In this document: one piece after another, positions 15,795-59,326 of the stretch
Numbering within the stretch: position 1 is the first letter of the stretch
Layout of the letters: each line of letters opens with the position of its first letter
From: a virus
Taxonomy: Duplodnaviria; Caudoviricetes
DNA length: 64,000 nucleotides
IMG/VR virus record: IMGVR_UViG_3300036546_000172
Span: 64,001 to 128,000 of that record
Reading direction: 5' to 3' (one strand)
Made by a program: the position numbers and the translations under genes
The notes under the pieces: generated by a model
What the model was told of the DNA's origin: nothing
Seen by the model: the letters and a program-made list of their open reading frames with translations, nothing else
The model's database searches: none

Positions 15795-17051
15795 ATGGAT
15801 TCTTATAGACAAGCTCTTCAGTACTGCCGAGATGGTTTGTTAAAAATGACAGACGATGGCGAGGGTCATCGTCTGTTCTGCTACACCAAGTCTTGCTTTT
15901 TTGGTAAAGATACATGGGACGATGTCACTAAGACTCATCGCGGCAAGCTGTACTATGAGAACAAGCCCGTTAATCACCCATTCACTAAGATCTTTAACGT
16001 AGATGAAGTTACAGAGACTGAGCATAACCTCATCTACAATCGCATGCAGAATGAACCATACGAGATCCTAGATAAGGCTAATGGACATTTGTTCATAGTA
16101 TCGATGTTCCAGGACTCCAAAGGTGAGCAGCACGTGGTATTCTCTACCAAGGGCTCAATGCCGAACCCCGAGAACGATCTACTGAATGATGACATTCGTA
16201 TATTCGCTCACAAATACTCAGAACAACTGGATAAGCTGTGTTTTGTGATGCCTAATGTTACATTGATGTTTGAGGCTATCGTCGCTCATGATAAGCACTC
16301 AATGTATGATCTGCAGGTCGAGCAGTATGGATCTGAAAACGACTTTGTTCTGCTCGGTGCTGCAATCAACCTAGGACGCGAGCACATCGACCTCGGTAAC
16401 GAAGATGAGTTAAAGAACATCCAGCATTCAGAGCACAATACAACTACACTGGCTGACTATCCGTGGGTAGAAAGTGATTGGCACCAATTGTTGAAGCTAT
16501 CACATTTCATCGGTTGTCCTGTTGTCCATTGCTACGATTTCATTGAAGGCTCACCTGAGACCTGGAAAGAGCATACTGATCGTGAAGGTTATGTGATTCG
16601 TTTCCTGACAGATAACGCAAGAGTTAAGATCAAGACTACTGAATATTGGAAGAATCGATTCAAAAAAGATCTGACACCTGAGGTATTATTATCTACGTTC
16701 GCTAAAGGCGGAGCTGCATTGATGCAGGAGAAGATCGCTAACAAATGCATTGCTAAAATCGAAAGTTATTTCATCTCATGGTACATGGATGATCTGATTC
16801 GATGGAAATCTGAAGTGCTGCCATACCTGAAACAGAAGAACAATCAATTGTCATCTAAAGATCGCAAATGGCTGTTCACTGAATCCTACTTCTGCAGTTT
16901 CCAGCGTCAATACATTGCAGCGATAGTAGATGGTAAGAATCTGGATATCACACAGAACAAAACTCTGCGTCAGATGTTCGTAGATGATGTAGCTCTTGAG
17001 CGTGCAGATATCAAACAATCGCTTGAACAGATTGTAGTGAATGCTCTATAA
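15795..17051 (+). CDS. RNA ligase, Rnl1-like
   Basis: PFTKIFNVDE, DKANG (motif I), STKGS, MFE and EGYV...VKIK. Confidence 0.8.
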   Translation: MDSYRQALQYCRDGLLKMTDDGEGHRLFCYTKSCFFGKDTWDDVTKTHRGKLYYENKPVNHPFTKIFNVDEVTETEHNLIYNRMQNEPYEILDKANGHLFIVSMFQDSKGEQHVVFSTKGSMPNPENDLLNDDIRIFAHKYSEQLDKLCFVMPNVTLMFEAIVAHDKHSMYDLQVEQYGSENDFVLLGAAINLGREHIDLGNEDELKNIQHSEHNTTTLADYPWVESDWHQLLKLSHFIGCPVVHCYDFIEGSPETWKEHTDREGYVIRFLTDNARVKIKTTEYWKNRFKKDLTPEVLLSTFAKGGAALMQEKIANKCIAKIESYFISWYMDDLIRWKSEVLPYLKQKNNQLSSKDRKWLFTESYFCSFQRQYIAAIVDGKNLDITQNKTLRQMFVDDVALERADIKQSLEQIVVNAL

Positions 17052-27718: not shown

Positions 27719-27724
27719 GACAAC

Positions 27725-27813
27725 AGAGAGTGATTCCAGCTGGTGCTGGAGACCGCCTGCTAAGCGGTTCGCCTGATTCATCGGGTGTGGTTCAATTCCA
27801 CCGCTCTCTGCCA
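27725..27813 (+). tRNA. tRNA-Ser(GCT)
   Basis: CTGCTAA loop, long variable arm, GCCA end. Confidence 0.88.
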
Positions 27814-27814
27814 T

Positions 27815-27913
27815 GGAGAGGTAAGCCGAAAGATCCGGGGTAGCGGCAACGGTCGTGAAAACCGAGGGTTTACGAAAGTAGACGTCAGGGTTCGAATCCC
27901 TGTCTCTCCGCCA
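27815..27913 (+). tRNA. tRNA-Ser(TGA)
   Basis: GGAGAGG/TCTCTCC acceptor, long variable arm, GCCA end; loop CGTGAAA has G33. Confidence 0.82.
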
Positions 27914-27919
27914 TATTGT

Positions 27920-28082: not shown

Positions 28083-28156
28083 GACGAGTTGGCCGAATGA
28101 CCAGGCGACGAGCTGCAACCTCGTTCATGTGAGTTTGAATCTCACACTCGTCTCCA
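28083..28156 (+). tRNA. tRNA-Cys(GCA)
   Basis: CTGCAAC loop, U73 then CCA. Confidence 0.9.
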
Positions 28157-28294
28157 ACATTGATGGTCTTTCGAAATGAATAGTAGTTATCACATATAAA
28201 TGACGCTACAATGTATTTCGAAAGTTAAGAACACCGCCGGACTGGCCCATCCGGGTACTGGTAGGGATTGAAGTTCCTAGGGCCACGCTCTTTA

Positions 28295-28679
28295 ACAAAC
28301 ATCATTGAGGTAGTCTCTAGGTGAGTTAACGGCCATTGACTCATTGAGGATTGGCGGAATAAAGTCGGAGGTCTTGGGCTTAACGCACGTTCAAAGAGGT
28401 GGTTCTCGGTCATCTATCAAATGGTAGATGACGCAGTCTGAAAAGGCTTGAACGGTTCCTTGCATACACTACAGGCTACAGACCCTACTCTGTTAAGCAT
28501 GTCAACAGTTCTCTCACCCTCATGCATGACTTGAAGATATTCTTCATAGTCGATGTCTGGCAACAGATGAGACAACAGATGACCAATCTAAGTCAGTCAG
28601 AGTCAACAAAGAGAGATGCAGGGGTGTTGGTAATAAGCTAGTCCAGCATTCTCACAGAGACTACCTCAATGATGTTTGT
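28295..28679 (+). ncRNA. unknown large structured RNA closed by a perfect 24-bp stem
   Basis: acaaacatcattgaggtagtctct / agagactacctcaatgatgtttgt, many nested helices, no credible ORF; strand inferred from the tRNA operon. Confidence 0.7.
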
Positions 28680-28684
28680 ATTAG

Positions 28685-28762
28685 TGCAGGGTGGACTGGA
28701 GATGGTTCCAGCTCGGTCTCATAAGCCGAATGACGGGGGTTCGAATCCCTCCCCTGCTTCCA
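28685..28762 (+). tRNA. tRNA-Met(CAT), initiator-like
   Basis: 1:72 mismatch, TCGGT/GCCGA anticodon stem, CCA. Confidence 0.88.
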
Positions 28763-28955: not shown

Positions 28956-29807
28956 ATGTTTAAAGTAACTCTTCCTTCTAACGATGACTTCTACTGTCTG
29001 TGTAATCTGACTGGGTTACCACTTGGTCAATCTCTCATCATCACCAACAATACCAACTCACAAATCAGAGTCAATCGAGTATCGGTTAAGCCAGAAGATC
29101 CTCTATTAGGATTCCCAGTATGGCCTGGTCAGACTATTCTAGTTCATGGTAATGAAGAGCAACCGGTCTGGACCAGAGGTAATACCAACGGCTACATTCT
29201 GGTACAAACTCTGACTGAAACCATGATGCCCCTAACCGGAGTAGAGTTTCCACAGGACATCGTGACATCAGGCATTGAGGGTTTTCGCAGACTTCAAGTC
29301 GATACAGGACAGACCGGATTCTTCGAAGGTCGTGAGTTTCGTTTTCTGCGTAAGATAAGATCCGGCATTACTTTCAAGTTCGTATCGGCTGTAGATTTCG
29401 TGTTGTATGAACAGGTGTTCGGTATCTCTTCAGGAGCTTACGAGTTTCATGCCTGGCGTGTAGATAATGTAGAAGAGACGGCGTCCTTTGGTACTGATCT
29501 GTCACAACACATCATTAACAAAAACGCCTCTGGCGAATACCGAGATTATAATGGAGATAGATATCAAACTCAGGTAAGCATATCATCAGGAGGAACGCTG
29601 GCTATTAACGATGTTGAATTATATACTGACTATGCTGAAATGAGAACGGCAGGTTCTACAGCACAACGAGCGAGTGTGAATCAAGGCGGTAACACACAGC
29701 GATATCTACCAGCAGGTACGTATTACCTATCGTTTACTGTTCTTGATGCACTAGTTCGCGGTACGTATCAAATTGGATGGGAAGAAAGACCATCGGGAGT
29801 GAAATAG
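28956..29807 (+). CDS. hypothetical late protein, possibly structural
   Basis: TAAATA upstream; DTGQTGFFEGREFR and YLPAGTYY motifs. Confidence 0.65.
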   Translation: MFKVTLPSNDDFYCLCNLTGLPLGQSLIITNNTNSQIRVNRVSVKPEDPLLGFPVWPGQTILVHGNEEQPVWTRGNTNGYILVQTLTETMMPLTGVEFPQDIVTSGIEGFRRLQVDTGQTGFFEGREFRFLRKIRSGITFKFVSAVDFVLYEQVFGISSGAYEFHAWRVDNVEETASFGTDLSQHIINKNASGEYRDYNGDRYQTQVSISSGGTLAINDVELYTDYAEMRTAGSTAQRASVNQGGNTQRYLPAGTYYLSFTVLDALVRGTYQIGWEERPSGVK

Positions 29808-30454
29808 TGACACATGCATTAGTGAATAAAGTGAAATTAATTGATGATCGAGACATGGTGATTCGTGCATCTATCGACGGTCAGTTTGAAGCAGATACCT
29901 TCAAGTTCGTTGATCATCATATGCCTGTAGGTGGTCTGTTTATGGATATCGGCGCGTATTCTGGTATCTACTCACTGTACGTGGCTCAGTTCAAAGATGC
30001 AGTAGCTTATGGATTTGAGCCTAACCCATTATTGTTTGAGCGTTTCAATCAGAACATTGAACTGAATGGATTGAGATCTAACATTCAACCGCTCAACTTC
30101 GGATTATCAAACAAACAACAGAAAGCCTCGTTGTACGTCAATCCAAACACACACCTGACATCCGCTGGCAGTCTATCACCAGAACGCGGTAAGACCTCTG
30201 TATTCGAAGTAGATATAGAGGTGTATGATGACATGCCGTTCTCCGTGCTGTCTATTGACATGGTCAAGATAGACGTTGAGGGTCACGAGTCTCAGGTGAT
30301 TGAGGGAATGATTTACACGCTTAAACGTGATCATCCAATTGTCATTGTAGAGTGCTTAGATGAGCAGGCGGTGAAGCAATGTGATGATCTTCTACTACCT
30401 CTTGGATATGAAAGGACTGGTTGTCTCGATGACAGAAACTACACGTACCAATAA
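29807..30454 (+). CDS. FkbM-family SAM methyltransferase
   Basis: DIGAYSG, FEPNP and KIDVEGHE. Confidence 0.88.
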   Translation: MTHALVNKVKLIDDRDMVIRASIDGQFEADTFKFVDHHMPVGGLFMDIGAYSGIYSLYVAQFKDAVAYGFEPNPLLFERFNQNIELNGLRSNIQPLNFGLSNKQQKASLYVNPNTHLTSAGSLSPERGKTSVFEVDIEVYDDMPFSVLSIDMVKIDVEGHESQVIEGMIYTLKRDHPIVIVECLDEQAVKQCDDLLLPLGYERTGCLDDRNYTYQ

Positions 30455-58228: not shown

Positions 58229-59326
58229 ATGCGTAAACTAGTAACTATCCGAGAAGTTAAAGAAGTTCGACCAATTGAAAAGGCTGATGCTATTGAGTGC
58301 ATTAGTGTTGATGGATGGACCGTTGTTTCAAAGAAGGGTGAATTTCAACCTGGAGACAAATGTGTCTTCTTTGAAATTGACTCCTTTCTCCCTGCCGATG
58401 ACGAAAGATATGCTTTTCTCATTAAGGGTGGTGTGAAGAAAGATCCATCCGGAAAAGAAAGGATTCGACTGAAAACAGTTAAACTACGAGGTCAGTTGTC
58501 TCAAGGTTTGGCACTACCAATTAAGCTATTCCCCGAGTTGAAATATTTTCTTCAAGGTGAAGATGTTTCTAGTGCTCTTAATGTAATCAAATATGAAAGG
58601 CCAGAACCAAAAACGGCAAATGCCGCTGGTCATTTCCCTGACTTTATTAAGAAAACCGATGAAGAACGTATTCAAAATGTCTATGATGACTTCAAAGAGT
58701 TGTATAAGAATACAGACTACTACGCAACAATGAAATTGGATGGGTCTTCATGTACTGTGGCATTTTTGAACCAAAATATGTCATGGCACTGGAGAAATGA
58801 ACCCGAATATGAAGTCATCAAAGATTCTAATAAGATCGGGGAATTCAAAGTTTGCTCACGGAATCTTGAATTGAAACCCGACCCAGAGTCTCACTTCTAC
58901 AAAGCAGTATTGTCTGGTGGTATTGTAGACAAGGCTCGTCTGATTTCAAAAGAACTTGGGTGTTCGGTTGCTATCCAAGGTGAAGTGATGGGGCCAGGTA
59001 TTCAAGGTAACAAAGATAAGTTTAATGACTATCAGTTTTTTGCATTCAATATCTTCAACATTGACAAGCAAGAATACTTACCGTATGCATTTGTTTTGGA
59101 ACTTTTCAATTACTTTGGGGTTCAACAAGTACCACTGATCACACAAAATAAAATTAAACCATTTACTTTGTTTGGTACTCTTGGTAGTATGTTGGACTAT
59201 GCGGATGGTTACAGTATCAATTCAGATTGCCGAGAGGGTATTGTAATGAAGCCTGCATGTGGAGCATCTGGAGAAAGTTTCAAAATTGTTTCAAACAGAT
59301 TTTTGATGAAAGGTGGTGATGAATGA
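58229..59326 (+). CDS. RNA ligase (DRB0094/Rnl2-like family)
   Basis: FEIDSFLP, KTDEERIQN, KLDGSS, QGEVMGPGIQ, EGIV and FKIVSN. Confidence 0.9.
   Translation: MRKLVTIREVKEVRPIEKADAIECISVDGWTVVSKKGEFQPGDKCVFFEIDSFLPADDERYAFLIKGGVKKDPSGKERIRLKTVKLRGQLSQGLALPIKLFPELKYFLQGEDVSSALNVIKYERPEPKTANAAGHFPDFIKKTDEERIQNVYDDFKELYKNTDYYATMKLDGSSCTVAFLNQNMSWHWRNEPEYEVIKDSNKIGEFKVCSRNLELKPDPESHFYKAVLSGGIVDKARLISKELGCSVAIQGEVMGPGIQGNKDKFNDYQFFAFNIFNIDKQEYLPYAFVLELFNYFGVQQVPLITQNKIKPFTLFGTLGSMLDYADGYSINSDCREGIVMKPACGASGESFKIVSNRFLMKGGDE

What the first reader, a model, noticed from the sequence alone, without database searches (positions are those of the whole stretch)
28295..28679. Unknown ~385-nt structured RNA inside the tRNA operon, clamped by a perfect 24-bp stem
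Seen: a perfect 24-bp inverted repeat (28295-28318 / 28656-28679). Inside are nested helices: tgagttaa/ttgactca, tgaggat/attctca, gcttaac/gttaagc, cgttcaa/ttgaacg, gtcatctatc/ggtagatgac, ctctc/gagag and gaaga/tcttc. There is no credible ORF, and it lacks tmRNA ends and a convincing RNase P core. Established: large ncRNAs of unknown function (GOLLD, ROOL, T4 species C/D) occur in phage tRNA clusters. Inference: a new or diverged class, with the long stem possibly an RNase III processing stalk or a retron-like a1/a2 mimic acting as a decoy.
Basis: partly seen in the sequence, partly recalled or inferred. Interest (0 to 1): 0.8.

Follow-up and report, generated by a model that had tools for sequence, protein, structure and literature searches.

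The report
Enlarged manA-type RNA among phage tRNAs
The flagged 385 bases encode a real, conserved, intricately folded RNA of a T4-like phage: an enlarged, uncatalogued relative of the known "manA" RNA (reported in a 2026 preprint to build RNA-only cages in the test tube), clamped by a two-turn perfect stem whose role in infection is still unknown.

Summary
The 24-bp inverted repeat is perfect and lies exactly where stated. Three further lineages of the element were found in metagenome contigs. They keep 114 base pairs in 18 helices, and 45 of those pairs show compensatory changes.

It is not a new class. The 5' 135 nt is a diverged manA RNA core (Rfam RF01745). All four copies match the full model at 24-41 bits, below the curated 55.2. 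The match is reciprocal with the canonical manA of cyanophage S-CREM1, which also sits flush between two tRNA genes.

Three things are new relative to catalogued manA:
- a conserved insertion domain of about 170 nt with eight extra helices, placed where manA has its variable region;
- one further conserved hairpin with a 12-nt loop;
- an outer stem of 22-24 bp, conserved in length, strongly covarying and nearly free of G-U pairs.

Best reading: a free-standing RNA made with the tRNAs, probably released at the stem by RNase III, and probably self-assembling like manA. Processing, assembly and function are inferred, not shown. A mobile DNA element, a retron mimic and a coding region are rejected.

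This scan has noted similar enlarged manA-like RNAs with 22-24-bp closing stems on other phage DNA.

The parts
28287..28294 (+). Invariant 8-nt 5' leader GCTCTTTA directly before the outer stem
   Evidence: Identical in all four homologues although the upstream context differs (alignment A5). Its role is unexplained.
28295..28318 (+). 5' arm of the outer stem (H1). 24 bp here; 22 bp (28297-28318) are shared by all lineages.
   Evidence: 22 pairs, 10 with compensatory changes, 100% of cells paired.
28656..28679 (+). 3' arm of the outer stem (H1)
   Evidence: 1 G-U in 88 cells against 44 G-U in 368 cells (4 of them unpaired) of the other helices (Fisher p = 0.0006; p = 0.009 with three lineages).
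28321..28344 (+). P1 hairpin (H2), 9 bp, with the invariant loop CGGCCA, which contains the self-complementary GGCC
   Evidence: 6 of 9 pairs covary; the loop is invariant; it aligns to manA P1.
28345..28350 (+). 5' strand of the core-closing helix (H3). Its partner is 28650-28654, not the nearer ACCCT chosen by the Rfam model.
   Evidence: 100% paired, one compensatory and two one-sided changes. In L196 the near partner would give only about 2 of 5 pairs (read from A5).
28354..28386 (+). Stem H4 with the GAAUAA / UAAC internal loop and the H5 hairpin, the most manA-like sequence block
   Evidence: nearly invariant; one compensatory pair in each of H4 and H5.
28388..28454 (+). Four-way junction: stem H6 plus hairpins H7 (loop GUGGU), H8 (loop AAAU) and H9 (GAAA tetraloop)
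   Evidence: H6: 5 of 6 pairs covary. H8: 4 pairs covary. H7 and H9 are invariant. The region matches the manA junction.
28457..28624 (+). Insertion domain closed by H10 (TCCTTGCA / TGCAGGGG), holding H11-H17, including a GNRA-capped hairpin H17 (loops GCAA, GAAA, GAGA)
   Evidence: H10 has 5 of 8 covarying pairs, H15 has 4, H17 has 5. There is no Rfam match and it is not a second manA core.
28627..28646 (+). Hairpin H18 with a conserved 12-nt loop, UAAUAA(G/A)CUA(G/A)U
28650..28654 (+). 3' strand of the core-closing helix H3
28083..28156 (+). tRNA-Cys, the upstream neighbour in the array
28685..28762 (+). tRNA-Met, starting 5 nt after the 3' arm. A similar tRNA-Met follows the element in L196.
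28235..28283 (+). Small H-type pseudoknot candidate upstream, which may be an associated module
   Evidence: the same topology occurs in all four loci, with compensatory changes between the window and L196. In L196 a tRNA-Asp separates it from the big RNA.
29777..30454 (+). FkbM-type methyltransferase gene, the linked downstream gene
   Evidence: 43% identical to the methyltransferase that starts about 80 nt after the element in L178. Two of the four homologues were found through this gene, so the linkage is biased.

Best explanation
A free-standing, highly structured RNA of about 385 nt of the manA type, transcribed on the + strand together with the phage tRNA array.

Architecture (shown): a two-turn outer stem encloses a three-way arrangement of the P1 hairpin and a core-closing helix. 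Inside that helix lie the manA core (the GAAUAA/UAA internal-loop stem and a four-way junction), an insertion domain of about 170 nt sitting where manA has its variable region, and one further hairpin with a conserved 12-nt loop.

How it most likely works (inferred): the flanking tRNAs are trimmed by the tRNA-processing enzymes. The regular, G-U-free 22-24-bp duplex is cut by host RNase III, as with the stems that flank rRNAs. This would release an RNA whose ends stay paired and protected. The released RNA then acts through its shape. By analogy with canonical manA RNAs it probably self-associates through its conserved loops (CGGCCA, GUGGU, two GNRA loops, the 12-nt loop) into defined oligomers.

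What this does for the phage is unknown.
For: Real RNA structure: four distinct sequences in three lineages (window; L178 and L193; L196), 60-75% identical. They keep 99.1% of 456 pair cells, against 31-41% when partners are slid. 45 pairs have changes on both sides, against 1-5 when slid and 17.3 +/- 2.9 when shuffled, with 0 of 500 shuffles reaching the observed value.

Strand: 45 G-U cells would be A-C mismatches on the other strand.

manA kinship: full-length RF01745 matches of 33.1, 37.1, 41.3 and 24.4 bits. Every manA helix is present, and most are supported by covariation. Model R1, built from these RNAs, finds the annotated S-CREM1 manA as the only foreign hit in 150 kb (18.1 bits, E about 0.01).

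Context: canonical manA lies flush between tRNA-Leu and tRNA-Asn in S-CREM1. The window copy lies between tRNA-Cys and tRNA-Met, and the L196 copy between tRNA-Asp and tRNA-Met.

Stem: 22-24 bp in every lineage, 10 covarying pairs, G-U depleted.

Assembly precedent: manA RNAs form pentamer-based decamers and a 60-mer cage through kissing loops and a GNRA-receptor contact (bioRxiv 10.64898/2026.07.01.735769).

No terminator lies between the array and the element.
Against: - All Rfam scores fall below the curated threshold of 55.2 bits, and the reciprocal hit is weak.
Transcript ends, RNase III cleavage and oligomerisation are therefore untested.
- The phage encodes no RNase III of its own, and the host is unknown.
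- In L178 and L193 the element has no tRNA neighbours and lies about 80 nt before a methyltransferase gene, which leaves room for a leader role.
- Canonical manA needs no outer stem, so the stem may be architectural rather than a processing site.
- Only three independent lineages are available.
Confidence: 0.6

Rival explanations
1. A cis-acting leader or riboswitch that controls the downstream FkbM-type methyltransferase gene.
For: Rfam types manA as cis-regulatory (PMC2864571). In L178 and L193 the element ends about 80 nt before the methyltransferase start, with no terminator between them. L178 was found by a DNA pattern alone, yet it carries a homologue (43% identity) of the methyltransferase that lies 1.1 kb downstream in the window.
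Against: In the window two tRNAs and a 283-aa gene intervene, and in L196 three tRNAs do. Both ends of the RNA are locked in the outer stem, and no alternative pairing reaches a ribosome-binding site. Other methyltransferase homologues lack the element. Two of the four copies were found through this gene, so the linkage is biased.
Confidence: 0.15
2. A self-processing or circularised RNA. The paired ends are cut and then joined by one of the phage RNA ligases, giving a circular manA-type RNA.
For: The stem holds the 5' and 3' ends together. The phage encodes Rnl1-type and Rnl2-type ligases. Earlier notes of this scan report joined ends for other enlarged manA-like RNAs (not checked here).
Against: There are no read data for this RNA. 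T4-like phages carry these ligases anyway. No ribozyme family matches.
Confidence: 0.1
3. A DNA-level element, such as a MITE-like transposon or a cruciform site, whose terminal inverted repeats merely resemble an RNA stem.
For: The arms are perfect and almost free of G-U, so both DNA strands stay complementary.
Against: It is single-copy in the genome, and I saw no target-site duplication in the flanks. The arm 21-mer is absent from the other JGI metagenome contigs. The arms change by paired substitutions between lineages instead of being conserved. The interior holds 17 further helices, many with G-U pairs that work on one strand only.
Confidence: 0.02
4. A retron-like a1/a2 mimic or decoy, or a small protein gene.
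For: None beyond the long terminal stem and a 39-codon ORF.
Against: No reverse transcriptase is among the neighbours examined, and the region holds only short ORFs. The ORF is interrupted in L178 (read from A5). A search with an antisense ORF found no protein.
Confidence: 0.02

Closest known systems
manA RNA motif (Rfam RF01745; Weinberg et al. 2010, PMC2864571; cryo-EM assemblies in Ren et al. 2026, bioRxiv 10.64898/2026.07.01.735769)
   Same: P1 hairpin, closing helix, GAAUAA/UAA internal-loop stem, four-way junction with a GUGGU-type loop and a GNRA loop. It occurs in T4-like phages and inside a tRNA array, as in S-CREM1. The model matches are significant and full-length.
   Different: It is twice the size. 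Scores of 24-41 bits fall below the 55.2 cut-off. The variable region is replaced by a conserved insertion domain of about 170 nt with eight helices, followed by one extra hairpin. A 22-24-bp outer stem and an invariant GCUCUUUA leader are added. The loop that carries ACCA in canonical manA is a GAAA tetraloop here. Assembly is untested.
rRNA precursor stems cut by RNase III (long-range pairing of the flanks of 16S and 23S rRNA in rrn operons that also hold tRNAs; own knowledge)
   Same: A long regular duplex formed by sequences flanking a structured RNA within a polycistronic stable-RNA transcript. The stem is about two helical turns long.
   Different: The enclosed RNA is 340 nt rather than 1.5-2.9 kb, and cleavage has not been shown here.
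Phage T4 stable RNAs species 1 and 2 (rnaC, rnaD) in the T4 tRNA cluster (own knowledge; the RNase III cleavage of species 1 that I recall was not verified)
   Same: Small stable RNAs of unknown function, encoded among the tRNA genes of a T4-type phage and matured from the same transcript.
   Different: No sequence or fold similarity was found. The T4 RNAs are about 120-140 nt.
ROOL and GOLLD large RNAs (Rfam)
   Same: Ornate RNAs often encoded beside tRNA genes in phages. They are reported to form RNA-only multimers (as cited in the 2026 preprint and in earlier notes of this scan).
   Different: No Rfam match to either. They are much larger and have different folds.

Membership tests
manA RNA (RF01745) | Score at or above Rfam's gathering threshold (55.2 bits) | tested here: not met
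   33.1 bits (window), 37.1 (L178), 41.3 (L193), 24.4 (L196).
manA RNA (RF01745) | Statistically significant full-length match to the covariance model | tested here: met
   Model positions 1-192 are matched in all four copies. E = 4.4e-8 on the 138-kb genome and E = 4.1e-8 for L193.
manA RNA (RF01745) | Consensus helices: P1, closing helix, internal-loop stem, four-way junction with three hairpins | tested here: met
   H2-H9 of the consensus are all 91-100% paired, and H2, H3, H4, H5, H6 and H8 show compensatory changes. The closing helix uses a distant 3' partner.
manA RNA (RF01745) | Reciprocal recognition of a canonical member | tested here: met
   Model R1 hits L168:1714-1831, inside the annotated S-CREM1 manA, at 18.1 bits with a rough E of about 0.01. 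It is the only foreign hit in 150 kb. The match is weak.
manA RNA (RF01745) | Size under about 220 nt with a short variable region | tested here: not met
   The element is 385 nt. About 195 nt lie between the junction and the 3' strand of the closing helix.
manA RNA (RF01745) | Homo-oligomerisation through kissing loops (2026 preprint) | not testable with these tools
   Only conserved loops are seen, including the self-complementary GGCC in L1.
RNase III processing stalk | Regular duplex of about two turns or more formed by the flanks of the RNA | tested here: met
   22-24 bp, no bulges, 1 G-U in 88 cells.
RNase III processing stalk | Cleavage by RNase III with staggered ends | not testable with these tools
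   No read data were available.
MITE / transposon | Several copies, target-site duplication, conserved terminal repeats | tested here: not met
   One copy, no duplication that I could see, arms absent elsewhere and covarying between lineages.
Retron ncRNA | Adjacent reverse transcriptase gene | tested here: not met
   The neighbours are tRNAs, a 283-aa protein of unknown function and a methyltransferase.

The most novel reading that the evidence does not exclude
The two-turn, G-U-free stem together with the conserved insertion domain defines a new architectural class of natural self-assembling RNA. In this reading, a manA core builds the shell or ring while the long stems and insertion domains project as struts or spikes. 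Alternatively, the stem is cut and the ends are sealed by the phage RNA ligases, giving a circular cage subunit. Either way, phages would deploy this RNA from their tRNA operons for a purpose still to be found, such as sequestering a host factor or serving the linked FkbM methyltransferase.
Probability: 0.15. Interest if true: 0.8.

Novelty: new variant of a known kind. Interest (0 to 1): 0.55.

Why it matters
manA was filed for 15 years as a possible riboswitch. A 2026 preprint reports that it builds RNA-only cages in vitro, but gives no biological setting.

This RNA adds three points:
- The manA core is used by non-cyanophage T4-like phages.
- It occurs as a stand-alone gene product of tRNA operons.
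- It exists in a much larger form, with a strictly conserved two-turn closing stem and a new domain of about 170 nt.

That supplies natural variants for asking how core, stem and insertions set assembly geometry. It also offers a defined, testable processing step (the stem) that could link the fold to phage RNA metabolism. In addition, Rfam's manA model and threshold miss a whole branch of the family.

Tried and rejected
Searches that found no homologue:
- blastn of the spacer against 50,697 phage records.
- Synteny through the downstream 283-aa gene. Relatives exist, but their tRNA regions lack the element.
- IMG/VR relatives reached through protein patterns: none close, and none with manA.
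- Four cyanophages and Pseudomonas phage pf16: no manA by the genome tool.
- DNA patterns GGAATAA..TAACG..AGGTGGTTCT (0 hits) and a looser one (114 hits, none beside a tRNA and none similar, so all taken as chance).
- The arm 21-mer in metagenomes (0 hits).
- The core pattern in IMG/VR and in species genomes (chance hits only).
- A pattern from the insertion domain in IMG/VR (chance hit).
- A protein search with an antisense ORF as bait.
- Two further methyltransferase loci.

Searches that worked:
- The core pattern in JGI metagenomes found L178.
- Methyltransferase homologues led to L193, L194 and L196.

Ideas tested and dropped:
- A second manA core in the 3' half: rejected, with negative scores.
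- Promoter and terminator scans were uninformative.
- A phage-encoded RNase III is absent.

Not possible or not found:
- A paper on T4 species 1 RNA and RNase III was not found in the library.

Full report
**The observation.** The window lies in a complete 137,942-bp IMG/VR phage record with terminal repeats. The phage is T4-like: it has gp43-type DNA polymerase, RIIA, a Dda-like helicase and an SbcC-like nuclease. Its polymerase is closest, at 49% identity, to that of Pseudomonas phage pf16. The flagged stretch lies in a tRNA array between tRNA-Cys (28083-28156) and tRNA-Met (28685-28762). The inverted repeat 28295-28318 / 28656-28679 is perfect over 24 bp. The 385 nt fold far better than shuffled controls (z = -6.3). 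The element is single-copy in the genome.

**Identity of the 5' half.** No Rfam family reaches its curated threshold here. With E-value reporting, positions 28321-28491 match the whole manA model (RF01745, positions 1-192) at 33.1 bits. On the 138-kb genome this corresponds to E = 4.4e-8. manA was described from marine metagenomes, T4-like cyanophages and two gamma-proteobacteria as a riboswitch candidate (PMC2864571). In cyanophage S-CREM1 the annotated manA (100.6 bits according to PMC9964418) fills the whole spacer between tRNA-Leu and tRNA-Asn. A manA RNA inside a phage tRNA array is therefore an established setting.

**Homologues.** Most searches failed (see Tried and rejected). A core pattern scanned over JGI metagenomes found L178, which is 75.5% identical over the whole element. 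L178 carries an FkbM-type methyltransferase gene about 80 nt downstream. That protein is 43% identical to the window's methyltransferase at 29777-30454. Its relatives led to L193 (identical to L194, about 90% identical to L178) and to L196 (about 60% identical to the window). In L196 the element again sits in a tRNA array, between tRNA-Asp and, 115 nt further on, a tRNA-Met resembling the window's. In L178 and L193 it lies between two protein genes with no tRNA nearby. All copies hit manA as their best non-tRNA family, at 37.1, 41.3 and 24.4 bits.

**Structure.**
- RNAalifold on the four-sequence alignment A5 gives 114 pairs in 18 helices, 45 of them with compensatory changes.
- Counting on that structure, 99.1% of cells are paired, against 31-41% when the partners are slid.
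- There are 45 double-change pairs, against 1-5 when slid and 17.3 +/- 2.9 when shuffled. No shuffle out of 500 reached the observed value.
- An unbiased scan of all column pairs recovers the same helices at the top of the list.
- Helices H2-H9 reproduce the manA plan: P1, a closing helix, the GAAUAA/UAA internal-loop stem, and a four-way junction with loops GUGGU, AAAU and GAAA.
- The closing helix pairs 28345-28350 with 28650-28654, not with the nearer ACCCT that the Rfam model chose. The distant pairing is complete in all sequences and has one compensatory change. The near pairing largely fails in L196 (read from A5).
- The stretch of about 195 nt between the junction and the 3' strand of the closing helix therefore occupies the position of manA's variable region. 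Most of it is a conserved domain of its own: H10-H17 (28457-28624), with several invariant blocks and a GNRA-capped hairpin. It is followed by hairpin H18 with a 12-nt conserved loop.
- This domain is not a second manA core.
- A model of the 5' core built from these four RNAs (R1) finds the S-CREM1 manA as its only foreign hit in 150 kb.

**The outer stem.**
- It is 22-24 bp in every lineage and has no bulges.
- Ten of the 22 shared pairs change on both sides.
- Only one of its 88 cells is a G-U pair, against 44 of 368 in the other helices (p = 0.0006; p = 0.009 when the two close relatives count once).
- The arms are absent from the other metagenome contigs.
- Taken together, this shows selection for a regular two-turn duplex rather than for a sequence. 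It argues against a transposon end.
- G-U pairs elsewhere in the RNA show that the + strand is the functional one.

**What it probably does.**
- Shown: a conserved, single-strand-specific fold of the manA type with added modules. It lies on the tRNA strand, with no terminator separating it from the array.
- Inferred: it is co-transcribed with the tRNAs.
- Inferred: it is released by the tRNA-processing enzymes and by RNase III cutting the two-turn duplex. The analogy is the stems that flank rRNAs (own knowledge). The phage has no RNase III of its own, so the host enzyme would do this.
- Inferred: it acts as a shaped RNA particle.
- Precedent for that last step: a 2026 preprint, which I read, shows that manA RNAs under 200 nt assemble in vitro into pentamer-based octamers, decamers and a 60-subunit T=1 cage. 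The contacts are kissing loops (L5-L7', L8-L9', L3-L8') and a GNRA loop-receptor contact. The preprint gives no biological role.
- The loops conserved here fit such a mode but do not prove it: CGGCCA with the self-complementary GGCC, GUGGU, two GNRA loops and a 12-nt loop.

**Rivals.**
- A leader role for the methyltransferase fits L178 and L193. It does not fit the window or L196, where tRNAs and a gene intervene. The linkage is partly an artefact of how the homologues were found.
- Circularisation by the phage's Rnl1-type or Rnl2-type ligases is possible but untested.
- A mobile element, a retron mimic and a coding region are rejected.

**Comparison and novelty.**
- This is a new variant of a known kind. 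It has the manA core but fails Rfam's threshold. It is twice the size and carries three conserved additions that the family description lacks.
- Earlier follow-ups of this scan reported enlarged manA-like RNAs in other phage tRNA arrays, two of them closed by 22- and 24-bp stems. Those are unchecked AI notes on other DNA. They gave me the lead to the preprint, which I verified. They also suggest that the architecture recurs.
- I did not compare those sequences with this one. A word-based look-up found no shared sequence outside this genome.

Noticed in passing
window 28235-28283; L196:1372-1420; L178 (- strand) about 1541-1569; L193 about 992-1023: An H-type pseudoknot candidate lies just 5' of the big RNA: a hairpin whose loop pairs with a downstream segment. 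The same topology occurs in all four loci. Between the window and L196 both stems change by compensation (CCGGA/UCCGG to CCAGA/UCUGG; UGGCCC/GGGCCA to UGGCUC/GAGCCA). L193 has the topology with an unrelated sequence. In L196 a tRNA-Asp separates it from the RNA. It may be a tRNA-like processing handle. There is no Rfam hit.
   Followed up: partly
window 28287-28294: The 8-mer GCTCTTTA is invariant directly before the outer stem in all homologues. It can pair with an internal AAAGAG, but without covariation. It also resembles the T4 MotA box TGCTTtA with one extra base (own memory). It remains unexplained.
   Followed up: partly
window 28168-28224: A 19-bp imperfect hairpin whose loop holds TATAAATG, close to the T4 late-promoter consensus TATAAATA (own knowledge).
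   Followed up: no
window 27724-27916: An Rfam 'tRNA-Sec' match at 27724-27810 (59.8 bits, above threshold) was not called by ARAGORN. A further tRNA-like stretch at 27817-27916 ends in GGTTCGAATCC...CCA. Both are probably long-variable-arm tRNAs, so the array holds more tRNAs than were listed.
   Followed up: no
window 15795-17051 and 58229-59326: The phage encodes both an Rnl1-type and an Rnl2-type RNA ligase.
   Followed up: partly
L198:4001-4603: The methyltransferase gene of a 143-kb ENA phage contig translates to its database protein only if TAG is read as Gln. This suggests a stop-codon-recoded phage.
   Followed up: no
L170 (Logan SRR11805452 contig end) = window about 28866: An otherwise identical 44.8-kb assembly of this phage breaks inside tRNA-Thr, just downstream of the element. 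A second JGI contig (L169) is identical across the element.
   Followed up: partly
L008 / L197 (GCA_033721355.1, JAWWAS010000001.1): A 148-kb contig binned as 'Nitrosopumilaceae archaeon' carries gp23-like, Thg1, tRNA-array and FkbM genes related to this phage group. It looks like a mis-binned phage genome.
   Followed up: no
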